IMG/VR virus record: IMGVR_UViG_3300020421_000008
Source of the DNA: an uncultured virus (IMG/VR IMGVR_UViG_3300020421_000008)
Lineage: Duplodnaviria > Heunggongvirae > Uroviricota > Caudoviricetes
Strand: one strand, 5' to 3'
Length of the DNA stretch: 20,000 nucleotides
Shown here piece after piece: positions 3,037-19,774 of the stretch (its first letter is position 1; the number at the start of each line of letters is the position of its first letter). Made by a program: the position numbers and the translations under genes. The notes beneath the pieces are model-generated. The model was not told the DNA's origin. It worked only from the letters and a program-made list of their open reading frames with translations, and did not search any database.

Positions 3037-3795
3037 CCTTTTCGCGGGATTTTCTTGAAACCCTGGATCGGTCTTCCTCGATTTGATCAAAAGTTGTAGT
3101 TTTTGAAAGTTTTCAGCTCAGCTGCAGCTGGCCTGTCAAAAACCTTAGGTAACTTTCTACTCTTCGAAGAATCTGAAGAAAGTTGCAGAAAGGTGCAGTT
3201 TTCGAGAGCTTTCCTGGGGGCCGGAGCTCCCGTCTCCTGGTTGGCCCCGTAAAATGGTGAAAAGTTGTGGTTTTTTAAAGTTTTGCGCTGCTATTGCCGC
3301 TGAGGAAGTGGATCAGCATTCTTAGAAAATGCAAAAAACGCCAGCTTTTGCAAACATTTGGGATGGGCCCCGTGCTGAGTGGCCCGCGGCTTCCCGTAAA
3401 TGCGGCAAAAATCTGACGTTTTTGAAAGTTTTATCGACTTTTACTTTTAGAAGCGGGATCGAAGTAGTTCTCTTTCGAGAGAATCGGTCCACATTCTACG
3501 TTCGGGGACGTTGATGTCATCGAATTGTCGATTGAATCGACGCTTTCTTGAGTTTTCCCGTTGTTTGTCGATTGCTTTTCGTAAGTTTTTCATTTAGTTT
3601 CACCTCTTCCGTTTAACTCCAGTATCTAATGTATAACATCTAGAGATTCTTGTCTAGTAAATAGCCTGTGTCCTTTGACACGTTTGGTAGTTTTAACATG
3701 GCTGAAACATTGTGGCCTGCCGTAGGAACACCATTGAGGTGGAATAGAAGGTTAGGAAGCCCCGATAGAATATAAAGGTAGGTTAGTCCCGCTTA

Positions 3796-7095: not shown

Positions 7096-7129
7096 AATTT
7101 AGCAGACTTTGAGCTTTTTGTCAAGTCTT
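7096..7129 (-). promoter_or_regulatory. strong sigmaA promoter
   Basis: AAGAC-TTGACA-17-TAAATT, with TGC immediately before the -10 box. Confidence 0.8.
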
Positions 7130-7165
7130 TTATCTAATTTTTTGTGGTTGGTTTTTATAGACTGT

Positions 7166-7200
7166 GAGGGAGAGGGTAACCAACCAAACCCCTCTCCCTC
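7166..7200 (-). terminator. stem-loop after the AAA gene
   Basis: GAGGGAGAGGG / CCCTCTCCCTC inverted repeat. Confidence 0.7.
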
Positions 7201-7252
7201 TGTGCGATGGCTAGGCGAAAGAAATAAAACCTAACCACTTGGAGGCACGATC

Positions 7253-7972
7253 TTAGCCTTCTACAGATTGAAACTTATCAATGTTGATTGCTTCAATAAA
7301 TGCAGTGGCTCGTTCTCCTAAGATAAGTTTGGCTGCTTTTTCCTCACCCATCTGTTGAGCAAGTTTGCTCATGGATTGGAATAAGCGGAGCGACATACGC
7401 TCTGCGCCAGCGTCAGCCATACGATCAGCATAGCCTCTCCAGTGCATTGGCAATGTAGCCAGAGCATCTGGGTGAGGGCGATCTATTCGCAAGCGAACTG
7501 GGAACCTATCTATCAGTGCCTGTGGCAGTTCTTCAATGACTTCAACATTAGTTGTCATCACTACGGTATAACCCGGAGCCGGAGTTGTTTTTTCTCCAGT
7601 TACTGGGTGTTCCCATTCAGACGATCCGTCAGAATCAGTCATGTTTAGGAGCGTAGCGAATACGTCACCACCTGCCTTATCTATTTCGTCTACTACGAGT
7701 CGAGCTCCAGTACGACGAGCCTTGATCGCAACACCTTCAATCCATTGGAAGCCACCATCTGCTGATGGTAGGAACCCTCCAGTGACATCCATGTTCGTCA
7801 TGTCGTCAGTACAAGTAAGTCTGTGAGACTCTTGCCCTTCTCTCTTTTGAGTATGAAGTGCGGAGAAGGTCTTACCAGTTCCCGGAGGACCGTACAGAAT
7901 TACTCTGTCCACTCCTGCGTTAAGAATCTGTTTGTAAGTTTCCCAACAATTCTCTCTCTCTTGATTTTCCAT
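7253..7972 (-). CDS. MoxR/CbbQ/CobS-like AAA+ ATPase
   Basis: Walker A GPPGTGKT, Walker B LVVDEIDK, sensor MTTN, ALIDRF Arg finger. Confidence 0.92.
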   Translation of the reverse strand: MENQERENCWETYKQILNAGVDRVILYGPPGTGKTFSALHTQKREGQESHRLTCTDDMTNMDVTGGFLPSADGGFQWIEGVAIKARRTGARLVVDEIDKAGGDVFATLLNMTDSDGSSEWEHPVTGEKTTPAPGYTVVMTTNVEVIEELPQALIDRFPVRLRIDRPHPDALATLPMHWRGYADRMADAGAERMSLRLFQSMSKLAQQMGEEKAAKLILGERATAFIEAINIDKFQSVEG

Positions 7973-8040
7973 TGTGTGTACCTCCAGTACATTTCTTTAT
8001 GGTTTTGGTTGGTGGGAGGAACTTCCCCCCACCAACAACA

Positions 8041-8074
8041 ACGTTAGCAGATTATTGTATCGCTGTCAAGTCTT
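8041..8074 (-). promoter_or_regulatory. strong sigmaA promoter embedded in the 3' end of the upstream CDS
   Basis: AAGAC-TTGACA-17-TAACGT. Confidence 0.8.
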
Positions 8075-8540
8075 TATCTAAAATTTCTTTAGATAATCTA
8101 AATTTATTTATGAACTGCATAACGGTATAGGCGCTTTCAACACCGAGCTCGTTAGCATGATCATCTCCCCAGTAGTCCTTGTTGTAAAGTACAACTGGTT
8201 CTTCCGAGCCTTTGTTATACCAAACACATGGTGCTGGGTAGCCGATGTCCGCTGGTGCATGCGTGATCATAATTCCATATCCAGTAGTGTCATAGTGATC
8301 CTGTAGTTCAGGTTCTACAACTCTGCGAGGATTGGTTAATGTGTCAAAAATTATCCGACTTGCATACGCCTCGTCATCTATACGACCAGCGTCTACACAT
8401 TTTTGAAGTCCATCTGCAAGTATTTCGCAAACGCTATCTCCTGTCCAATGTGTGTAGAAGTGTACAACACCTCTTGACTTTGGTTGTCCTTCGCTATCTA
8501 GGTAGCCTTGATTAATTGAGATTACTGCTCGCTCTCCCAT
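8052..8540 (-). CDS. phage hypothetical protein (MG.RA.I...Y.HW.G type)
   Basis: ORF track; TAATG coupling. Confidence 0.8.
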   Translation of the reverse strand: MGERAVISINQGYLDSEGQPKSRGVVHFYTHWTGDSVCEILADGLQKCVDAGRIDDEAYASRIIFDTLTNPRRVVEPELQDHYDTTGYGIMITHAPADIGYPAPCVWYNKGSEEPVVLYNKDYWGDDHANELGVESAYTVMQFINKFRLSKEILDKDLTAIQ

Positions 8541-8947
8541 TATCGCAACACCTTCCTTCCTATTTCTAGTAGTGAGTCTAAACTATTCCACATGTCAGAG
8601 CAGAGTTCAGCCCACTCGTAGTCTGTGTAATTGTATTGTCCCAAGTATGATTGTATTTGAGTTCCTGCACCGTTGTCACGGTATCCCATGATGGGCAAGT
8701 CCTCAATTTGAGTTTTGTGGAGTTCATTCCACTGTCCAACACTTTCAGAGAATAGTGATACGGAACCCCATGATTGGAAGTCGTAACTATTCCTGCGAAT
8801 GTCGGCTTTTAACCTTCGGACACTGGTACCGTAGGTGAAACTCATAATGAGTGTTCCGATAATATCATTACTATGATTATCTATCCGAACATCAAAAAAG
8901 AGTTCATCTTCTTTAGTTCCTGATCCGATTGGCAATTTTGTTTTCAT
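8540..8947 (-). CDS. hypothetical protein
   Basis: GGAGGT RBS; own promoter at 8993-9021. Confidence 0.8.
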   Translation of the reverse strand: MKTKLPIGSGTKEDELFFDVRIDNHSNDIIGTLIMSFTYGTSVRRLKADIRRNSYDFQSWGSVSLFSESVGQWNELHKTQIEDLPIMGYRDNGAGTQIQSYLGQYNYTDYEWAELCSDMWNSLDSLLEIGRKVLR

Positions 8948-8992
8948 ATGTACCTCCAGTACATCTGTAGAGGGCTTTCCTCCACAAACAAA

Positions 8993-9026
8993 ACATTAGC
9001 AGAGTTTTTATACCCTGTCAAGTCTT
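8993..9026 (-). promoter_or_regulatory. strong sigmaA promoter
   Basis: AAGAC-TTGACA-17-TAATGT. Confidence 0.8.
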
Positions 9027-9028
9027 GT

Positions 9029-9481
9029 TTAAGATTTTTTCAAATTATTTAGTACATTGATTTCTGAATCCCAGTCATCTCCGTACTGTTCGTTTTCCTG
9101 CAAAAAGCTTATGATGTTGTCCAATACACGATTGTTGTACTGGTCATCTGTTTCTACTATTGGACTTATTGGACTCGGATCAGAAGATATCTTCTCATAA
9201 GCATCTAACTCTACGAGTTCTTCCTCTACGAGCGTATGAATGTCAAGGCCTTTATCATCAAGCCCTAATTCAAAAAGATTATCTAAGTTTTCAATAATGT
9301 AATCTAGGACTTCGTGAAACTGTTGTTTCTTTCCCCGATCTTTATATTGCTTATATTCCTTCCGAAGATCAATAAGTTTGTCTGTAGCTTTTCGCACGGC
9401 TTTCCAGCCGTAGAAGTTATCCAGTTCTTGATCTGCTTCTTGTTCTTGGTTTATTTGATTTTCATTGTTTGGTTTTTTCAT
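9029..9481 (-). CDS. acidic hypothetical protein (start revised to ATG at 9481, MKKPNN)
   Basis: AGGAGGT RBS before 9481; promoter at 9516-9544 lies inside the longer ORF call. Confidence 0.8.
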   Translation of the reverse strand: MKKPNNENQINQEQEADQELDNFYGWKAVRKATDKLIDLRKEYKQYKDRGKKQQFHEVLDYIIENLDNLFELGLDDKGLDIHTLVEEELVELDAYEKISSDPSPISPIVETDDQYNNRVLDNIISFLQENEQYGDDWDSEINVLNNLKKS

Positions 9482-9515
9482 TTTACCTCCTGTAAAATTG
9501 TTAGTTAATATTTTG

Positions 9516-9554
9516 ACTTTAGCATAGGGGAGAGGCTCTGTCAAGCCCCTCCCC
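9516..9554 (-). promoter_or_regulatory. hairpin fused with a promoter (-35 in the loop)
   Basis: GGGGAGGGGCT-TGACAG-AGCCTCTCCCC; TTGACA-17-TAAAGT. Confidence 0.75.
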
Positions 9555-9560
9555 CAAACT

Positions 9561-10463
9561 TTAGACTGACGCAAGTAGCATGTCGCCAGTCCGAATGGTA
9601 AGGCTTTGAGCCTTTGCCGGATCGGATACAACATTAACTTGTTTCAGTTGTTTGCTCTTACCTTTAGTACCGATGTGGTACTCGTAAGACTGTACTGCTT
9701 GATAGAGAGAGTAAGCGTTATGCCCGAAGGTATTTGCTTCTTCCTCGTAGTAGTACATGATTCCATCACGACGTTTTTGCGCAGCATTTTGTGCTTTGGT
9801 ATTAGCGTCTGGATCAAAGTCCAACAGTGGAGCAACTTCGTCAAGGATTGTGTTCCGTAGACCACTGGTCATCGGTAAACCTTTGAGCATAGTTGCATTG
9901 GTGATGAACCTATCAAAAGCATCAGCATAACTTGACATTATCTGAGCTTTTTGGAACAGTAAGCCATCGTGGTTACGAGTTCGCTTCTGTGCAATTTGGA
10001 GAGTACCTTGTCCCTCTTGGTTAGTACAGAAAGGTCGGAACGTAAAACCGATTGCTTTTGTTTTGTAGGTGCTGTTAAGACTAGCAGTGTACATAATGTG
10101 TTTAGTTAAAGAGTCACCGTCACCGAAAGAGAATGTATCTTCTATATCTTGAGTGAACACTAGAACTGCACCATTATCCCATGTCTGCATACCAGTAACA
10201 CTTTCAGGGAACATGGCCTCAGCCGTGTTCAGAAGTGATTGGTATGATCCAGCATAGTAGCCTTCTTTAACGCCAGCATTGAGAACAACTTGAGTACCGT
10301 CTGCCATATCACGGTAAATAGTAAATGACGAATCATCTACAGTTCCGTTAGGAAGAATAGTACCTGTTAGTTGTGGCTCAAAGAGAGCATCAGCATCTAA
10401 CGCAGCATCAGTGGCCGATAAGCCCTGATCCCATGTTTTATTTCTAGTTAGCATATGTGCCAT
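9561..10463 (-). CDS. DUF932/DUF945-like phage/plasmid protein
   Basis: FRPFCTNQ, KRTRN and NAYSLYQAV.SYEYH motifs; 300 aa; GGAGGT RBS. Confidence 0.8.
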   Translation of the reverse strand: MAHMLTRNKTWDQGLSATDAALDADALFEPQLTGTILPNGTVDDSSFTIYRDMADGTQVVLNAGVKEGYYAGSYQSLLNTAEAMFPESVTGMQTWDNGAVLVFTQDIEDTFSFGDGDSLTKHIMYTASLNSTYKTKAIGFTFRPFCTNQEGQGTLQIAQKRTRNHDGLLFQKAQIMSSYADAFDRFITNATMLKGLPMTSGLRNTILDEVAPLLDFDPDANTKAQNAAQKRRDGIMYYYEEEANTFGHNAYSLYQAVQSYEYHIGTKGKSKQLKQVNVVSDPAKAQSLTIRTGDMLLASV

Positions 10464-10519
10464 ATTTTTGGACCTCCATTAGGTCGGTGTTATTATCAAG
10501 CGATTTACTTGATAAGTAA

Positions 10520-10548
10520 ACTTTAGCATAGTTTTTTATATGTGTCAA
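10520..10548 (-). promoter_or_regulatory. strong sigmaA promoter
   Basis: TTGACA-17-TAAAGT. Confidence 0.8.
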
Positions 10549-10555
10549 GTTTTAA

Positions 10556-10873
10556 TTAAGATTTTCTGTCCTGATCCCAATCTTCGTGGTTAGGACCAGC
10601 CTCTCCAGTTAAGAACTGTATGCCACCATCTATGTCAAGAAAGCCTCGCTCGATTCCTTCCTTTACCCATGCTTCCGCAAAAGTTGGGCTAAGGTTTCTA
10701 TGGATTCTCTCTCGTGCGCAAGTTAATGCCATCATGTCATCAGTTGCTTCTGGATAAGCATCATCAGGATTCATAAGATCATTATGTTCTTCCATCTGAT
10801 TTAAGTGCGAGTCAATAGCAGCGCTAACTTGCTCCCACTCTTGTTCTGTTAATTCTACGTTTAGATTAGGCAT
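10556..10873 (-). CDS. acidic hypothetical protein
   Basis: AAGGAG RBS; ORF track. Confidence 0.8.
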   Translation of the reverse strand: MPNLNVELTEQEWEQVSAAIDSHLNQMEEHNDLMNPDDAYPEATDDMMALTCARERIHRNLSPTFAEAWVKEGIERGFLDIDGGIQFLTGEAGPNHEDWDQDRKS

Positions 10874-11033
10874 GTTGCCACGCTCCTTTAGGTGTTAGTG
10901 AACCTGCCCATTGCTCGACTGCTTCAAAGACTCCACACTCACTGCATATGTCAGTTTCATTGTCTGTCCGACTAAGAGCCGGATATTCTGTTAATTCATT
11001 TATCCCACATCGTGGGCATTTATCGGTATTCAT
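10866..11033 (-). CDS. 55-aa Zn-ribbon protein (CPRCG...PALSRTDN..ICSECG)
   Basis: Translated by hand. AGGAGGT RBS; promoter TTGACA-17-TAATAA at 11070-11098. Confidence 0.8.
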   Translation of the reverse strand: MNTDKCPRCGINELTEYPALSRTDNETDICSECGVFEAVEQWAGSLTPKGAWQHA

Positions 11034-11114
11034 TTTGGACCTCCTTGATCCTGTTCGTTGTTAATACAATTATTAGCACAAGTTTTCTGGCTTGTCAAGT
11101 CTTATTTAAGATTT

Positions 11115-11396
11115 TTACCAATTACGCCAATTTCTTCCCCATCTTGGAGAAGTAGAACGTAAGTAAAAAGCTAATTCAGGATACTTTTCCTCAATAGAAC
11201 TTGGTAGGTAAACGTGGACCAGCAGGTCCAGTCTTCTAATAAACTTACAAGGGGAGCCGAACCAGAACCTACTGCAAGGTTTCGTTTCGCTCTTAATGAA
11301 CTTGCGAATCCTTCCATGATCTATGTCCCAGTAGTCAATTCCTATCTTGTTTGCCAGCATCATGATGCCTATTTGGTAGTTGTTTAATTTATTCAT
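11115..11396 (-). CDS. basic hypothetical protein, leaderless
   Basis: TTGACA(11426-31)-17-CATACT, then 6 nt to the ATG. Confidence 0.65.
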   Translation of the reverse strand: MNKLNNYQIGIMMLANKIGIDYWDIDHGRIRKFIKSETKPCSRFWFGSPCKFIRRLDLLVHVYLPSSIEEKYPELAFYLRSTSPRWGRNWRNW

Positions 11397-11489
11397 AAGA
11401 ACAGTATGACATACTTTGTTTCAGTTGTCAAGTAATTTTTATTTAAGATTTACTTGCAATGGTATTCAAGACCTGCTACAGTGGAACAC

Positions 11490-11828
11490 ATGAAAGTAAA
11501 AGTTTATTACAACTTACATAAACATACATTTAGTATTCAAACCAAAACCCCGAAGGGGTGGAGGGTTACTGACTATGCTGACTCACTAAACCTGACAGAC
11601 GTTGAGTTTAGAGTGAGTGAGGCTGGCCGTAGAAGGGTGCTAAAGGAAGGCAGGAAGAATGTCCACGCCTTTGTAATCGGAACACTCACAGATGAGGAAT
11701 TAGACACGACAATAGATGTCTCTTACAATCCGTACAAGGCTGGTCATTTCTTTCGCAAGGATAACGGAGAGCCAGTTAAAAAAGCTCGTAAAGTTACCTT
11801 ACTTAATAGGCAAGTTAAAATTTCTTAA
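11490..11828 (+). CDS. conserved phage protein (VYYNLHK..FS...RKNVHAFV.G...YNPYK type); leaderless, start revised to 11490
   Basis: TTGCAA(11454)-17-TACAGT, then 7 nt to the ATG; motif pattern recalled from phage proteins. Confidence 0.85.
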   Translation: MKVKVYYNLHKHTFSIQTKTPKGWRVTDYADSLNLTDVEFRVSEAGRRRVLKEGRKNVHAFVIGTLTDEELDTTIDVSYNPYKAGHFFRKDNGEPVKKARKVTLLNRQVKIS

Positions 11829-11831
11829 AAA

Positions 11832-11865
11832 AAGACTTGACAAACCTTTAAGAGTCTGCTAATGT
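11832..11865 (+). promoter_or_regulatory. strong sigmaA promoter driving an ORF-free transcript
   Basis: AAGAC-TTGACA-17-TAATGT. Confidence 0.8.
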
Positions 11866-11871
11866 ATTTAT

Positions 11872-12312
11872 ATCCGGTAACAGGAGGTGGGGCGCTGCGG
11901 CTACCCCACCAAAGTTACAGGTAACATATCGGAACTATATTCGACCTTGCTGGTCTGGATTATATGGGAGCCTAGCGACCTGATTCAACCTCAAACGATT
12001 TGTATCCGGTATGTTACACACAATAGAATAAAAAACGGATACTGGAGTCACTACCAGTATTGAAGTAGAACCAAAAGGTTTCTATTAGCACCATAGTTAC
12101 TTAGAGTATGGGATGCTAAATATAGACTCCGAGTCGGTAAAGATACTATTTTGTAAGATGAGAGTGACGGCGTGAAAGCGTGCTGTTGATCTACTTCGTC
12201 GTTTGGCTTGAAGGCTGCTCGTGAGTACGAAAGCGCTTTCGTGGGTTCATCAGACCGCTTCAAGTCAGGCAAAGCCTCACCTAAAGTTATAAACACTAGG
12301 GTGGGGTTTCTT
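11872..12312 (+). ncRNA. candidate large structured ncRNA (about 440 nt), family not recognised
   Basis: Promoter upstream, no sense ORF, many nested stems (11921-33/12005-17; 12062-69/12190-97; GGCTTGAAG/CTTCAAGTC), terminal hairpin with U-rich tail. Confidence 0.7.
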
Positions 12313-12333
12313 CCTGGTTGCTGGTCTTGCCAA

Positions 12334-12445
12334 CCGTAGGGATACCATAGGGACACCATTGAGCTCATATAGCACTAAGGAAGTCCCGAAAGAAACTGGA
12401 CTATCTCACCCTTCTTTTGATTTTGACCAGATTTGACCAGACTTG
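12334..12445 (+). repeat. composite boundary element
   Basis: 2x TAGGGAYACCA, GTCCCG-AAAGAAA-CTGGAC (12383-12401), TTTGACCAGA x2. Confidence 0.75.
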
Positions 12446-12591
12446 GCCTGCTGCTGCTTTCGCTGCTGTTTGCTGGAGTTCAACAAAGCGCAGGGGAAGT
12501 CCTATCTTTTTTTTGTTTCGGTTTTGTCTCCGAAAATATATGTCTGGTTTTGGGTGAACAGTTTTGAGTCATGTTCAGGACTGTGGTGGAA

Positions 12592-12843
12592 TTAGAGGAC
12601 TGGGATTATCTGAAGTTCCTCTATGCTTGTGGCAAGAGAACCTCCGTCATTTCCTTCGTCATCTGACATGGGTATTATCCATGTTCCATCATCAAAAGTA
12701 ATTGCGATTGGTCGCTTGTACCAATAATTATCTTCTGCTTCTTTTGGAGAGAGATACTCAACACTCGTGATTGTCTTACCGACAAGCTCCTTGCTGATTC
12801 GCTCTATCCATTTTGTTTCAATGTCTTGCATTGTGTCGCTCAT
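12592..12843 (-). CDS. conserved phage hypothetical protein (DDEGNDGG motif)
   Basis: GGAGGT RBS; promoter TTGACA(12902-07)-17-TACCAT. Confidence 0.85.
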   Translation of the reverse strand: MSDTMQDIETKWIERISKELVGKTITSVEYLSPKEAEDNYWYKRPIAITFDDGTWIIPMSDDEGNDGGSLATSIEELQIIPVL

Positions 12844-12951
12844 AGTACCTCCATGAGTTATAGTTGTTTACGTCAGTAATGGTAGCAGGCCTGATTTACC
12901 TTGTCAAGTCATTATTCCAAAAATAATTATTTAATTTTATTGTGTTCGAGG

Positions 12952-12980
12952 TTGTCATTGTCACACCCATCTGGTAAATT
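12952..12980 (+). promoter_or_regulatory. promoter with TGTC element
   Basis: TTGTCA-T-TGTCAC-N10-TAAATT; AT-rich UP-like tract upstream. Confidence 0.6.
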
Positions 12981-13030
12981 GAATATACCGATGAGGAAGC
13001 AAATAAAATTTATTTGAAAAATCTTAGGTA

Positions 13031-13064
13031 AAGACTTGACAGAAAGAAAACGATCTGTTAAGTT
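13031..13064 (+). promoter_or_regulatory. strong sigmaA promoter
   Basis: AAGAC-TTGACA-17-TAAGTT. Confidence 0.75.
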
Positions 13065-13097
13065 GAAAACACACTAATAAGTCATGGAGGACTTAAA

Positions 13098-13481
13098 ATG
13101 AATACAACAGTAATTATTAACCAAACTAAAGTAGAGGAGTTAGCAGCCCAAAAAGTTGTTGAACTTCGTTCCGCTTTAGCAGATGCAAAAGATGCAGTTG
13201 AAGAAGCAGAAGCGCAATTCAAAGCGTTAGATGTTGAATCTGTAACTCTTGCAGACGGAACCAAAGTTGCAATCGTCACACAAAATAGACGAAGCATTGA
13301 CAATGAGGTTCTCAAAGATGTTCTTCCACAAGGACAACATCAAAGAGTAACCAAACGAGTCGGTGACATGAAACTCATTGACGGAGCAATCGAAGCAGGT
13401 TGGTTAGATGGAGACTTGGTAAACCAAGCAATCACCGTCAAAGAAGTACAATCGCTGAAAGTTACCCAACCAAAGCGATAA
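13098..13481 (+). CDS. hypothetical protein with N-terminal coiled coil; paralog of 19394-19774
   Basis: GGAGG RBS; about 74% aa identity to the paralog by manual alignment. Confidence 0.9.
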   Translation: MNTTVIINQTKVEELAAQKVVELRSALADAKDAVEEAEAQFKALDVESVTLADGTKVAIVTQNRRSIDNEVLKDVLPQGQHQRVTKRVGDMKLIDGAIEAGWLDGDLVNQAITVKEVQSLKVTQPKR

Positions 13482-13489
13482 GTTATTTG

Positions 13490-13528
13490 GGCTAGGGAGT
13501 TGCAATAGACTCCCTAGCCTGATACACT
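13490..13528 (+). promoter_or_regulatory. hairpin fused with a promoter (-35 in the loop)
   Basis: GGCTAGGGAGT-TGCAATAG-ACTCCCTAGCC; TTGCAA-17-TACACT. Confidence 0.75.
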
Positions 13529-13564
13529 CGTAATATGTTAAACAAACCAAAGTCAGGAGACTTT

Positions 13565-13726
13565 ATGAAAAACACAATAGAGGTAGAGGAAACTTTACCA
13601 GATGAAGAAATTGAAAGTATGTTAGCGGAGCTAAATGTTCCTAATGACATTCATTTCAGTGACGAGGTACCAGATTATCAAGGTATCCGAGACATGGCAG
13701 ATGATCTGCTAGAAAGTAGAGGCTAA
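13565..13726 (+). CDS. small acidic protein (alternative leaderless start at 13535)
   Basis: AGGAG RBS before 13565. Confidence 0.75.
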   Translation: MKNTIEVEETLPDEEIESMLAELNVPNDIHFSDEVPDYQGIRDMADDLLESRG

Positions 13727-13727
13727 T

Positions 13728-14363
13728 ATGCCGAACCATTGCGAAAACTACCTAGAGGTAGAAGGACCAGCGTCTGATGTAAGACGTTTCGAGGAAGCGA
13801 TCAGGGATCAGGTAACTGATGACGTTCGTATCGTAAACCTCATGCCCATGCCAGAAATACTTGAGGGTACTAAATCCCCAAGTCCAAAATCAGAGCAATT
13901 TGATGAAGATGGAAAGTATATGGAATGGGTGAACAATCCAACCAATGAAAATTGGAATATGGATAAGTACAATAAAGCAAAAGCGATTCATGCAGAAGAG
14001 TGGGCTGCTGGTATTGAGGCTAGAGAAACAACAGGTTTCAGTGACTGGTACTCGTGGGCAATCTCTGACGAGAATTGGGGAACCAAATGGGGAGACTATG
14101 AAACCCATCTGGACTCTTACTACGATGATGAACGTGGACAGATAGATGGTCGTTTTGAAACGGCATGGAGTCCATTAAGTAATTCATTCTGGGAGCATGT
14201 GTCTAAACAATTCCCTACCCTAAAAATTAGCGTATCTTTCCGAGAGGAAGGTATGTGCTTCGAGGGAGGGCAAGCGTACTTTGCCGGAGAGTGTCACTAC
14301 GATGAGACTAGCGAATTGTCTGCTCATCATAGTAGCGCTAGAGGAGCATTAGCGAATCTATAA
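13728..14363 (+). CDS. DUF1281/YubB ferredoxin-like-fold family protein
   Basis: MPNHCEN.L, WY.W...NWGTKW and FETAWSP motifs. Confidence 0.85.
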   Translation: MPNHCENYLEVEGPASDVRRFEEAIRDQVTDDVRIVNLMPMPEILEGTKSPSPKSEQFDEDGKYMEWVNNPTNENWNMDKYNKAKAIHAEEWAAGIEARETTGFSDWYSWAISDENWGTKWGDYETHLDSYYDDERGQIDGRFETAWSPLSNSFWEHVSKQFPTLKISVSFREEGMCFEGGQAYFAGECHYDETSELSAHHSSARGALANL

Positions 14364-16012: not shown

Positions 16013-16217
16013 TTCATCTTTTGCTCCTTTTAGCTCTGCCTGAGCTGAGCAAAAACTGTCATTTTTGATTAGTTTTGCCAAATTTTCTACTGGCCTGCCC
16101 GCTGGTCTCCCGTTTTTTGTCAAAAACTTTCAAAAACGACAGATTTTCGCTGCTATTTTGCCGCTATTTTGCCGCTACTGGGAATAAAAAATTATTTAAG
16201 AAATTGTTGGACAAAGG

Positions 16218-16246
16218 TTGCTTTTGTCTCACCCTTATGTTAAGAT
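16218..16246 (+). promoter_or_regulatory. promoter with TGTC element driving an ncRNA
   Basis: TTGCTT-T-TGTCTC-N10-TAAGAT. Confidence 0.65.
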
Positions 16247-16251
16247 GGGCG

Positions 16252-16526
16252 TAGCCCGAAAGGGTGGCAGGGGGAAACCCCGAATTGACAACTGAATATC
16301 CATTCGGTTGGGTTGCAACTAAGGGCCCACCGAACTTCGTGGAAAGAGGTTCTTTTTACCAAAAAACCTACCAGAAGTGGAAACGGAAACCATCAAAAGA
16401 ACCGAAAGGTACGGTGCGGACTCCTCAAAAACCTTGCAAGGTGGAGGGCGAACCTAAATGGCAAACAAGATACCCTTCGCAAGTAGAGAGTGAAGAACCG
16501 ATCCACCGAAGTTCGGTGGGCTTTTC
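16252..16526 (+). ncRNA. candidate structured ncRNA (about 275 nt) rich in GNRA tetraloops
   Basis: GCCC-GAAA-GGGT, GGG-GAAA-CCC, ACC-GAAA-GGT; perfect 15-bp long-range stem 16325-39/16507-21 followed by TTTT. Confidence 0.7.
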
Positions 16527-16555
16527 GCCTGGTTGGGGTTGGGGCGAGCTGCATA

Positions 16556-16675
16556 GCGTAGGTACGCCATAGGGACACCATAGCAGTCTAATAGAAGGAG
16601 AAGAGTCCCGATAGATACGGGACTACTCGACCTTCGACCTGACCTGACCTGCTGCATGACCTGACCTGCTGGTCA
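16556..16675 (+). repeat. composite boundary element
   Basis: TAGGTACGCCA-TAGGGACACCA, AATAGAAGGA, GTCCCG-ATAGATA-CGGGAC (16605-23), (GACCT)n. Confidence 0.85.
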
Positions 16676-19393: not shown

Positions 19394-19774
19394 ATGGATA
19401 CTTTATTAGTGAATGATCGCAAGATCAGCGAACTAACCGCACAGCGAGTCGTGGAAGCACGGAGCGCTCTTGCAGAAGCAAGGGAAGCGGTTGAGGAAGC
19501 AGAACTTGCTTTCCGAGCGTTAGAAGTTGAAAGCGTAACCCTCGCAGACGGAACGAAAGTTGCAATAGTGAATCAAAACAGACGATCTATTGACAACGAT
19601 GTTCTGAAAGCGATTCTTCCGCAAGGGCAACACCAACGTGTTACCAAGCGAGTCGGTGAGATGAAACTTATTGACGGTGCGGTTGAAGCAGGGTGGCTAG
19701 ATAGCGATCTTGTTGGTAAAGCGATCAACATCAAAGAAGTTTCTTCCGTCAAAGTTACACAACCAAGACGGTAA
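19394..19774 (+). CDS. hypothetical protein; paralog of 13098-13481
   Basis: GAAAGGG RBS; shared VESVTLADGTKVAIV and LPQGQHQRVTKRVG blocks. Confidence 0.9.
   Translation: MDTLLVNDRKISELTAQRVVEARSALAEAREAVEEAELAFRALEVESVTLADGTKVAIVNQNRRSIDNDVLKAILPQGQHQRVTKRVGEMKLIDGAVEAGWLDSDLVGKAINIKEVSSVKVTQPRR

What the first reader, a model, noticed from the sequence alone, without database searches (positions are those of the whole stretch)
11872..12312. ORF-free, multi-domain structured RNA of about 440 nt with its own strong promoter
Seen: a consensus TTGACA-17-TAATGT promoter, then no sense ORF, but dense nested pairing. Stems include GTAAC/GGTGGGG...CCCCACC/GTTAC; a 13-bp stem 11921-33/12005-17 enclosing a domain; TACTGG/CCAGTA; and GAAGTAGA(12062)/TCTACTTC(12190) closing a multibranch with TTAGCA-CCATA/TATGG-TGCTAA, GACT/AGTC and a UGAAAG-loop hairpin. 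GGCTTGAAG/CTTCAAGTC closes a GAAA-loop domain, and a terminal hairpin with U-rich tail ends just before the boundary element. Many G-U pairs on this strand indicate RNA-level structure. Known: phages encode large ornate RNAs (GOLLD, ROOL), but I cannot match this one to those, tmRNA, RNase P or an intron. Inference: candidate new large ncRNA class expressed early in infection.
Basis: partly seen in the sequence, partly recalled or inferred. Interest (0 to 1): 0.8.

Follow-up and report, generated by a model that had tools for sequence, protein, structure and literature searches.

The report
Expressed structured RNA gene, marine phage
An uncultured marine phage carries a stand-alone gene for a folded RNA of about 370-440 bases that makes no protein, turns up in ocean RNA libraries and keeps its folds between variants, but whose job is still unknown.

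Summary
A TTGACA-17-TAATGT promoter, one of 8 copies of a phage promoter family in the window, is followed by about 440 nt with no translatable ORF. The stretch folds into six helical domains and ends in a hairpin with a U-rich tail. No Rfam family, tRNA/tmRNA or protein family matches.

New evidence:
- **Expression:** contigs from three marine metatranscriptome libraries (two studies) cover 11942-12312. One library also holds two diverged variants.
- **Structure conservation:** four base pairs change on both sides and stay paired. A GAAA tetraloop is swapped for UACG together with its closing pair. A 60-nt arm is replaced by 21 other letters.
- **No antisense gene:** the 105-aa frame gains a stop and mostly non-synonymous changes.

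Most likely this is a real, expressed, structure-constrained non-coding RNA gene. It is the cargo of a promoter-terminator cassette in the early-gene array of an uncultured marine myovirus, probably an actinophage.

Its function is unknown. My best guess is a stable trans-acting RNA that binds a protein, like the abundant early RNAs of mycobacteriophages L5/D29.

It was absent from 55 related phage records. The first 70 nt, the strand and the timing are untested. The scan noted the surrounding cassette array before on a near-identical record (e1-5922824), but not this RNA.

The parts
11837..11865 (+). Promoter: -35 TTGACA, 17-nt spacer, -10 TAATGT. One of 8 copies of a phage promoter family (AAGAC-TTGACA-N15-G[CT]TAA).
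   Evidence: 7 matches against 0.01 expected; alignment of all 8 copies.
11877..11918 (+). 5' hairpin H1 (GUAAC / GGUGGGG...CCCCACC / GUUAC). It sequesters an AGGAGG that has no start codon behind it. Not covered by any RNA contig.
   Evidence: -21.1 kcal/mol, z -2.6. One search shows that sibling cassettes also begin with a hairpin at +1. One search shows no cover.
11921..12017 (+). Domain D1: a long irregular hairpin with a 13-bp base. RNA contigs begin inside it, at 11942, 11969 and 11973.
   Evidence: -33.9 kcal/mol, z -4.4 on +, -1.3 on -. table 8.
12038..12061 (+). Hairpin H2 (AUACUGG / CCAGUAU).
   Evidence: z -3.2, 0 of 200 shuffles.
12062..12197 (+). Domain D2: a multibranch closed by GAAGUAGA/UCUACUUC. 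It holds a variable arm (12075-12134, replaced by 21 other letters in variant B).
   Evidence: z -2.35. tables 5 and 5c.
12148..12168 (+). Longest stretch unchanged in the window and both variants (21 nt, AUUUUGUAAGAUGAGAGUGAC). A possible functional site.
   Evidence: table 3. By my own estimate such a gap has a chance probability of about 0.14, so the signal is weak. Folding does not settle whether it is paired or unpaired.
12166..12187 (+). Hairpin with a tetraloop. The window has GCGU-GAAA-GCGU, variant A GCGA-GAAA-UCGC, variant B GCGC-UACG-GCGU.
   Evidence: table 3 (12173, 12174, 12176, 12177, 12178, 12181). plus inspection.
12201..12270 (+). Domain D3: a 13-bp base stem, internal loops and a 12-bp hairpin with a GCGC loop. 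This is the best-supported domain. Three pairs change on both sides and several G-U pairs become Watson-Crick pairs or the reverse.
   Evidence: z -3.0 on +, -1.0 on -. tables 3 and 7..
12272..12312 (+). Terminal hairpin and U-rich tail (UUUCUU), followed by CCTGG. The same end pattern closes other cassettes. The two longest RNA contigs end at 12303 and 12312.
   Evidence: z -3.8. table 8. (similar ends near 16543, 18030, 18950). Not called by the simple terminator scan.
11942..12312 (.). Span covered by contigs assembled from RNA libraries (3 runs, 2 studies).
   Evidence: table 8, records 10, 11, 14 and 15.
12051..12368 (-). Antisense 105-aa ORF. It is not a gene. Its start lies in the repeated boundary element.
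   Evidence: no family. (stop in variant A; codon positions 1/2/3 changed 4/8/7 and 3/5/8)..
12336..12372 (.). Repeated 'boundary' element (GTAGGGAYACCATWG...) that follows the cassette. It is outside the RNA.
   Evidence: families D3, D4, D8 (copies at 2754, 3720, 4194, 12345, 16567, 18989).

Best explanation
This is a stand-alone gene for a structured non-coding RNA of a family not yet described. It is carried as the cargo of one promoter-to-terminator cassette in the early-gene cassette array of an uncultured marine myovirus, probably an actinophage.

**Shown:**
- A sigma-70-type phage promoter of a repeated family.
- About 440 nt without a translatable frame.
- A terminal hairpin with a U-rich tail.
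- Presence of 11942-12312 in contigs of RNA libraries.
- Helices kept by compensatory change in natural variants.

**Inferred:**
- The host RNA polymerase starts near 11872 and stops near 12312.
- The terminal hairpins make the RNA long-lived, so it accumulates. The 5' 70 nt may be trimmed off.
- It acts in trans as an RNA, most likely by binding a host or phage protein as a sponge, decoy or scaffold. This would serve host take-over or counter-defence, rather than antisense pairing.
For: **Cassette without a protein.**
- 7 of the 8 promoters of the family are followed by GGAGG + ATG. This one is not.
- None of the 8 open frames of 42 aa or more that I scanned, out of 15 stop-to-stop frames of 25 aa or more, matches Pfam or PHROGs at a meaningful level. 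The best is E 0.2.
- No protein in the 5.8-billion collection corresponds to the 58-aa sense frame.

**No known RNA.** Rfam gave 0 matches at gathering score. ARAGORN found 0 genes.

**RNA libraries.** Contigs of X18 and X19 (one study) and X20 (another study) cover the element:
- 11942-12060 and 12031-12303 (X18), 0 differences.
- 11969-12312 (X19), 0 differences.
- 11973-12164 (X20), 1 difference.

**Variants in X18.**
- Variant A covers 12072-12259 with 25 differences.
- Variant B covers 12031-12074, then 21 other letters, then 12135-12282 with 21 differences.

**Test against the fold of the window sequence alone.**
- Variant B breaks 1 of 8 changed pairs. Random placement of the same changes breaks 4.3 on average (p 0.026).
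- Variant A breaks 3 of 7 against 6.1 expected (p 0.064).

**Pairs changed on both sides and still paired.**
- 12226:12243, U-G to A-U, in both A and B.
- 12173:12178, U-G to A-U, in A.
- 12211:12260, A-U to G-C, and 12210:12261, G-C to A-U, in A. These are read by eye from the loose end in table 7.

**Other structural signs.**
- A GAAA loop is replaced by UACG, with its closing pair going from U-G to C-G, in B.
- The 21 letters that replace the 60-nt arm in B can themselves form a short hairpin (by eye).

**Strand.** G-U pairs make up 20 of 150 predicted pairs. Four of five domains fold clearly better on +. The promoter and the end hairpin are also on +.

**Not antisense-acting within the phage.** No complementarity to the phage genome beyond 13-mers at E 0.68.
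Against: - All RNA evidence comes from assembled contigs. They cannot show strand, ends or level, and DNA carried into an RNA library is not formally excluded (warnings).
- No RNA contig covers 11872-11941, so the link between the promoter and the stable RNA is unproven.
- Covariation rests on three sequences, and the two variants share 4 changes. No R-scape-type statistic is possible. One small predicted hairpin (12136-12147) is half broken in variant A.
- Sliding-window folding energies are unremarkable.
- No homologue was found in any assembled collection other than identical copies.
- Nothing tested here bears on the proposed protein-binding mode of action.
Confidence: 0.7

Rival explanations
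1. It is a transcribed but functionless or purely cis-acting cassette filler. For example, it could be the remnant of a decayed gene, or a structured spacer that insulates or terminates transcription between convergent units. It would accumulate only because it is hairpin-rich.
For:
- The element is absent from 55 related records, and in one relative the neighbouring gp82-like gene is followed by a protein gene instead. It is therefore dispensable for the lineage.
Against: - Compensatory changes, a tetraloop swap with its closing pair, and replacement of an arm by another hairpin all indicate selection on the fold across 12-14% divergence.
- No residual protein similarity in any of the 8 frames scanned.
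- A plain terminator needs one hairpin, not six domains.
Confidence: 0.14
2. It is the RNA subunit or guide of a protein encoded elsewhere in the phage or host. That would make it part of a ribonucleoprotein such as a nuclease guide, a packaging RNA or a Ro/Y-RNA-like particle, rather than a free sponge.
For: - Its size and multi-domain fold are in the range of such RNAs.
- A 21-nt stretch is unchanged in three variants.
Against: - No Rfam match to omega/HEARO RNA, the IS605-associated RNAs, pRNA or Y-RNA-like families. The best is IS605-orfB-II at 18.3 bits against a threshold of 88, on the opposite strand.
- None of the 25 window ORFs scanned is an IscB/TnpB, reverse transcriptase or Ro homologue.
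- No extended complementarity to the phage genome.
Confidence: 0.08
3. The region is protein-coding, either the antisense 105-aa ORF (12051-12368) or a small sense ORF (58 aa at 11887, 43 aa at 12208).
For: - The antisense frame is open for 105 codons and has a 77%-identical relative, P0002.
- The length change in variant B (60 to 21 nt) is a multiple of three.
- None of the 9 distinct changes in 12208-12259 falls on codon position 2 of the 43-aa frame. By my estimate p is about 0.03 before correcting for six frames.
Against: - Variant A puts a stop in the antisense frame.
- Non-synonymous changed codons outnumber synonymous ones, 10:5 in A and 8:4 in B. Changes fall at codon positions 1/2/3 as 4/8/7 and 3/5/8.
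- P0002 stops aligning at query residue 69.
- The antisense ORF starts inside a repeated boundary element.
- No frame has the GGAGG + ATG signal that all 7 sibling cassettes have.
- The 43-aa frame would change completely after codon 17 in variant A, while RNA pairing is kept (table 7, by eye).
- No family match. The 58-aa frame matches nothing in the protein collection.
Confidence: 0.03
4. It is a DNA-level element, such as an operator palindrome, a recombination site or a replication site. Its presence in RNA libraries would then be DNA carry-over of a sequence shared by many co-occurring phages.
For: - The core of D3 (ACGAAAGCGCTTTCGT) is a perfect 16-bp palindrome. Symmetric changes in a protein-bound palindrome would mimic covariation.
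- Contigs cannot prove transcription.
Against: - Many helices depend on G-U pairs, which are mismatches in DNA and on the other strand. The strand asymmetry of folding points the same way.
- Observed changes run G-U to A-U and G-C to G-U, which has no meaning for a DNA palindrome.
- The element has a promoter in front and a terminator-like end.
Confidence: 0.03

Closest known systems
Abundant, stable early non-coding RNAs made from Pleft at the right genome end of cluster A mycobacteriophages (L5, D29, StarStuff). Source: PMC5712189; I read the passages found with 'non-coding RNA'.
   Same: - An actinophage context.
- A roughly 500-bp transcribed region without conserved ORFs, directly behind a strong early promoter.
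- A very abundant, stable RNA of unknown function.
- The gene next to the element here (11454-11828) is a homologue of L5 gene 82 (Pfam PF25735, E 3e-34).
   Different: - No sequence similarity. A distant-mode BLAST of 11400-12900 against 50,697 phage records gave no match.
- Here the unit is a mobile cassette inside an array, not at a genome end.
- Toxicity to the host, shown for the L5 region, is untested here.
- No structure or covariation was reported in the passages I read.
PeSL (promoter-early stem-loop) regulatory cassettes in the hyperplastic regions of T4-type phages (Arbiol et al. 2010). Source: PMC2839356; abstract and outline read.
   Same: [quoted passage not shown]
- Units are gained, lost and shuffled between related phages. 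Here 8 promoter copies and 6 boundary repeats lie in 20 kb.
- The RNA cassette is absent from relatives.
   Different: - PeSLs flank protein ORFs. Here the cargo is a 440-nt RNA with no ORF.
- The spacers here are long and carry extra repeats.
- Mini-circle formation was not tested.
GOLLD and ROOL, large ornate RNAs often found in prophages. Source: bioRxiv 10.1101/2024.12.08.627333, search listing and start of abstract only. The rest is recalled.
   Same: Large multi-domain RNAs linked to phages, of unknown biochemical function, transcribed as stand-alone units.
   Different: - No match to either Rfam model.
- This RNA is smaller. ROOL at about 580 nt and GOLLD at about 800 nt are recalled figures.
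- Self-assembly into multimers is untested here. The only hint is a palindromic GCGC apical loop.
T4 stable RNAs C and D, and phi29 packaging RNA (both recalled, from no call).
   Same: Phage-encoded stable RNAs that make no protein.
   Different: They are much smaller (about 120-175 nt, recalled). pRNA is in Rfam and did not match. The phage lineage and genomic setting differ.

Membership tests
Any Rfam 15 family (4227 models, including GOLLD, ROOL, HEARO/omega RNA, OLE, raiA, 6S, RNase P, tmRNA, SRP, Y-RNA-like, pRNA, group I/II introns, self-cleaving ribozymes, IMES and PhotoRC motifs) | Score at or above the family's gathering threshold against its covariance model | tested here: not met
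   0 matches at gathering score in the whole window. At E<=10 over 11700-12700 there were only IS605-orfB-II (18.3 bits against a threshold of 88, opposite strand, E 2.3) and the MS2 hairpin outside the element.
tRNA / tmRNA | Cloverleaf, or a tRNA-like domain with a tag reading frame | tested here: not met
   ARAGORN found 0 genes in the window.
HEARO / omega RNA and other transposon-nuclease guide RNAs | An adjacent IscB/TnpB-type nuclease gene | tested here: not met
   None of the 25 window ORFs scanned has such a domain. The flanks are a Phage_L5_gp82 homologue and an 83-aa protein without a family.
PeSL-type promoter/terminator cassette | Repeated strong sigma-70-like promoter | tested here: met
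   7 copies of CTTGACA-N13-16-GCTAA against 0.01 expected, plus one variant copy.
PeSL-type promoter/terminator cassette | A stem-loop terminator closing each unit | tested here: inconclusive
   A hairpin at 12272-12309 with tail UUUCUU, z -3.8. Similar ends at three other cassettes by eye. The simple terminator scan does not call it. Terminator activity is not testable here.
PeSL-type promoter/terminator cassette | The cargo is a small protein ORF | tested here: not met
   No ribosome-binding site + ATG, and no conserved frame.
Cluster A mycobacteriophage Pleft non-coding RNA | Sequence homology to the L5/D29 right-end transcript | tested here: not met
   No blastn match (word 11) of 11400-12900 in 50,697 phage records.
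Cluster A mycobacteriophage Pleft non-coding RNA | An abundant stable transcript early in infection, toxic to the host | not testable with these tools
   Only contigs from environmental RNA libraries are available. There is no time course and no host.
Protein-coding gene (antisense 105 aa) | The frame is kept open and substitutions are biased to synonymous sites in relatives | tested here: not met
   A stop in variant A. Non-synonymous to synonymous codons are 10:5 and 8:4. P0002 aligns only to residue 69.

The most novel reading that the evidence does not exclude
The RNA is the founding member of a new class of large phage RNAs that act directly on the host during take-over. It could be a decoy or sponge that disarms a host defence or RNA-processing factor. 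It could instead self-associate through its palindromic GCGC-loop hairpin, like the RNA-only assemblies of GOLLD and ROOL. In either case it spreads between phages as a self-contained promoter-RNA-terminator cassette.
Probability: 0.2. Interest if true: 0.8.

Novelty: new member of a known kind. Interest (0 to 1): 0.55.

Why it matters
Stable non-coding RNAs are among the most abundant early products of some phages, such as L5 and D29, yet none of these has a known mechanism.

This one comes with three things that are rare for an environmental candidate:
- a defined transcription unit;
- presence in ocean RNA libraries from two studies;
- natural variants that map which helices matter.

That makes it a tractable model for what such RNAs do. 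It also shows that the shuffled gene cassettes of phage hyperplastic regions can carry RNA genes as well as protein genes. Annotation pipelines would mislabel this one as a 105-aa hypothetical protein on the wrong strand.

Tried and rejected
**1. Homologue hunting, all negative apart from identical copies**
- blastn against phages and plasmids.
- 49 loci around gp82-like genes and 2 loci around the 83-aa gene, searched with nhmmer/blastn and with covariance model R1.
- 59 loci matching a strict promoter pattern; all were single matches, apparently by chance.
- Back-translated antisense ORF against viral contigs.
- The 19-mer core in viral contigs: 0 matches.
- The 18-mer in metagenome contigs: 5 loci, of which 1 is a scaffold identical to the window from 12034 on, and 4 are short matches in what looks like coding DNA.
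- The 18-mer in genome contigs: 2 matches in Sulfuricurvum/Sulfurimonas genomes, with no R1 hit.
- The 15-mer in viral contigs: 15 loci, best R1 hit 14.6 bits and not at the matched word.
- 50 of the 80 best capsid-related records (309 relatives in all): no hit by BLAST, by the 21-mer with up to 3 mismatches, or by R1. The 30 shortest records were not searched.
- The boundary-element pattern gave 61 loci, 6 of them true array-bearing relatives. I searched 5 of those whole records and none holds the RNA; L280 was not searched.

- No RNA contig lies on 11872-11941.
- Little or nothing lies on the flanking genes in the 4-kb stretch laid. I therefore do not claim that the flanks are silent or that the 5' end is at 11942.
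- DNA run X17 covers the flanks but not 11474-12277, and it has unlike sequence next to 11440 and 12344. This hints that the cassette is missing in that population, no more.

**3. The unchanged 21-nt core.** By my estimate its chance probability is about 0.14. Folding does not say whether it is unpaired.

**4. Antisense targets in the phage.** Nothing beyond chance.

**5. Hammerhead-like GAUGAG in the core.** The invariant C and U of CUGAUGA are missing (by eye), and there is no Rfam hit.

**6. An alternative promoter (GTTACA-16-TATATT, 11914-11941).** Contig 10 starts at 11942, too close to that -10 box to be its start site.

**7. The listing of cluster members for P0002** could not be run. 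Where P0002 comes from, and whether it is a cut gene, stays open.

Full report
**Setting**

The window is part of an uncultured viral record (nearest held record G001: 128 kb, 87% complete). G001 encodes a portal, large terminase, HK97-type capsid, tail sheath, baseplate J, family A DNA polymerase and ribonucleotide reductase. It is therefore a tailed myovirus.

In the window, a WhiB-type regulator and a homologue of mycobacteriophage L5 gene 82 point to an actinobacterial host. This is inference. The DNA occurs in marine metagenomes of several studies.

The window is an array of small transcription units. One promoter family (CTTGACA-N13-16-GCTAA) occurs 7 times against 0.01 expected, with an eighth variant copy. 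A 'boundary' repeat occurs 6 times.

**The observation**

Seven of the eight promoters of the family are followed within about 22-65 nt by a GGAGG-type ribosome-binding site and an ATG. Several of those also have a hairpin right at the predicted start. The copy at 11837 has the hairpin, but no start codon follows its AGGAGG.

| Measure | + strand | - strand |
|---|---|---|
| Full length, 441 nt | -147.3 kcal/mol, z -4.27, 0 of 100 shuffles | z -2.10, 2 of 100 |
| Domain by domain | z -2.6 to -4.4 | z -1.0 to -2.9 |

G-U pairs make up 20 of the 150 predicted pairs. Against this, 150-nt sliding windows inside the element are unremarkable (z -0.5 to -2.5), and other spots nearby score lower. Thermodynamics alone would not carry the claim.

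**Not a known RNA, not a protein**

Rfam 15 gives nothing at gathering thresholds in the whole window. At E<=10 it gives only two chance-level matches. ARAGORN finds nothing.

- The antisense 105-aa ORF and the other open frames have no Pfam or PHROG match. I scanned 8 of the 15 stop-to-stop frames of 25 aa or more.
- The 58-aa sense frame matches nothing among 5.8 billion proteins.
- The antisense frame matches only a 99% copy and one 77% relative of 72 aa, which stops aligning at residue 69.

**Presence in RNA libraries**

A search of public runs with 11000-13500 listed 24 runs, 20 of which hold part of the stretch. Three of those 20 are metatranscriptomes, holding 0.15, 0.14 and 0.07 of the sampled words. 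I laid them on 10000-14000.

| Run | Study | Contig span | Differences |
|---|---|---|---|
| X18 | P6 | 11942-12060 | 0 |
| X18 | P6 | 12031-12303 | 0 |
| X19 | P6 | 11969-12312 | 0 |
| X20 | P10 | 11973-12164 | 1 |

The tool's own cautions apply. Contigs cannot give strand, ends or level. DNA can be present in an RNA library. Uncovered parts prove nothing. I therefore claim only that the element is present in RNA-library assemblies of two studies. The two longest contigs end at the predicted terminator, which is a weak hint. No contig covers 11872-11941, so the 5' end is open. The cause may be processing or assembly drop-out.

**Natural variants keep the fold**

X18 also holds two diverged forms.
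- Variant A covers 12072-12259 with 25 differences, 19 of them listed. It then runs on into unlike letters.
- Variant B covers 12031-12074, then 21 other letters in place of 12075-12134, then 12135-12282 with 21 differences, 16 of them listed.

I tested both against the minimum-energy fold of the window sequence alone. The null model placed the same changes at random positions carrying the same reference base.
- Variant B breaks 1 of 8 changed pairs, against 4.3 expected (p 0.026).
- Variant A breaks 3 of 7, against 6.1 expected (p 0.064).

Two of A's three 'breaks' lie in hairpin 12170-12181. In a one-step different register the hairpin reads as follows (by inspection of table 3):

| Form | Hairpin 12170-12181 | Reading |
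|---|---|---|
| Window | GCGU-GAAA-GCGU | reference |
| Variant A | GCGA-GAAA-UCGC | compensatory change at the closing pair |
| Variant B | GCGC-UACG-GCGU | GNRA-to-UNCG loop swap with a C-G closing pair |

Changes in domain D3:
- 12226:12243 goes from U-G to A-U in both variants.
- 12225 G>A turns G-U into A-U.
- 12240 C>U turns G-C into G-U.
- 12252 A>G turns U-A into U-G.

I read A's 'loose end' after 12259 as the homologous 3' strand of the base stem. That gives 12211:12260 A-U to G-C and 12210:12261 G-C to A-U. It also gives three G-U pairs turned into Watson-Crick pairs, with 11 of 13 pairs kept (by eye, table 7). The 21 letters that replace the 60-nt arm in B can form a short hairpin of their own (by eye).

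P0002, back-read from its amino-acid differences, adds 12266 C>U (G-C to G-U) and 12206 G>A (G-U to A-U). This is inference.

Limits: there are only three sequences, A and B share 4 changes, unlisted differences lie near contig ends, and the small hairpin 12136-12147 is half broken in A.

**Coding test on the same variants**

In the antisense frame, variant A creates a stop. It has 10 non-synonymous against 5 synonymous changed codons, and B has 8 against 4. Changes fall on codon positions 1/2/3 as 4/8/7 and 3/5/8.

The 43-aa sense frame shows no position-2 change among 9 sites. However, its replacements are radical, it has no ribosome-binding site, and in variant A it would change completely after codon 17 while the RNA stem is kept.

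**Distribution**

No assembled collection holds a homologue other than identical copies (see Tried and rejected). In particular, no hit came from BLAST, from the core word with up to 3 mismatches, or from a 138-position covariance model, in these records:
- 50 capsid-related records with 64-99% capsid identity, two of them at least 90% complete;
- 5 array-bearing relatives.

In one relative the gp82-like gene is followed by a 116-aa protein gene where this phage has the RNA. The RNA cassette is thus confined to a narrow group of co-occurring marine phages. It behaves like the other shuffled cassettes.

**What it most likely is and does**

*Shown:* a promoter of the phage's repeated type; an ORF-less, multi-domain, strand-asymmetric fold; a hairpin and U-rich end; presence in RNA libraries; helices under purifying selection.

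*Inferred:*
- Transcription runs from about 11872 to about 12312 by the host polymerase.
- The RNA accumulates because of its terminal hairpins.
- It acts in trans as an RNA.

I found no antisense target in the phage and no partner gene nearby. I therefore favour a protein-binding sponge, decoy or scaffold role in take-over or counter-defence. Confidence in that last step is low.

The closest functional parallel is the abundant, stable, host-toxic early RNA made from Pleft of mycobacteriophages L5, D29 and StarStuff, whose function is also unknown (PMC5712189, passages read). It shows no sequence similarity. The closest architectural parallel is the PeSL cassette of T4-type phages (PMC2839356, abstract), with an RNA instead of an ORF as cargo.

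**Verdict**

This is a real and apparently expressed non-coding RNA gene of a family not in Rfam. It is a new example of the known but unexplained kind 'abundant stable phage RNAs', and a well-documented case of an RNA cargo in a phage cassette array. Its function, strand, ends and timing remain to be shown.

Noticed in passing
window 16218-16560: A second ORF-poor, GNRA-loop-rich stretch of about 310 nt lies behind a TTGCTT-17-TAAGAT promoter. It ends in the same hairpin + TTTTCGCCTGG + boundary-repeat pattern. It folds at z -2.7 (+) and -3.5 (-), with a long-range stem CCCACCGAACUUCG/CGAAGUUCGGUGGG. It may be a second RNA cargo.
   Followed up: partly
window 7099-13064 (promoters at 7124, 8069, 9021, 9544, 10548, 11098 on -; 11837, 13036 on +): Eight copies of one promoter family (AAGAC-TTGACA-N15-G[CT]TAA), diverging from a point near 11400-11450. 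Several transcripts start with a hairpin directly at +1.
   Followed up: yes
window 2754, 3720, 4194, 12345, 16567, 18989: A repeated boundary element (GGTAGGGAYACCATWG). It is usually followed by a GTCCCG-loop-CGGGAC hairpin and GACCTG repeats. The same 16-mer pattern found array-bearing relatives in IMG/VR (6 of 61 loci).
   Followed up: partly
window 3089-3432 and 16123-16153: Four direct copies of a 25-nt iteron-like repeat (AAAAGTTGTAGTTTTTGAAAGTTTT) in a 1.2-kb ORF-poor stretch, with an inverted copy 12.7 kb away. This may be an origin-like or regulatory region.
   Followed up: no
window 13098-13481 and 19394-19774: Two paralogous genes of 127 and 126 aa (300 nt at 74% identity) with no Pfam or PHROG family, each in its own cassette.
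   Followed up: no
window 9029-9634 (-): A promoter copy (9519-9545) lies inside the listed 201-aa ORF. The real start is probably the ATG behind AGGAGGTAAA about 40 nt downstream of that promoter, which would make the gene shorter than the longest ORF.
   Followed up: no
window 11403-11440 and 12344 (DNA run X17): Contigs of one marine DNA run match the flanks but continue into unlike sequence at 11440 and before 12344. This hints that the gp82-like gene and the RNA cassette are replaced by other content in that population.
   Followed up: partly
L291 (G054:C1:11167-14365): In a higher-GC relative, the gp82-like gene (67% nt identity) is followed by a 116-aa protein gene and then a boundary-like repeat (GGTAGGTACACCATTGAG). 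There is no RNA cassette.
   Followed up: yes
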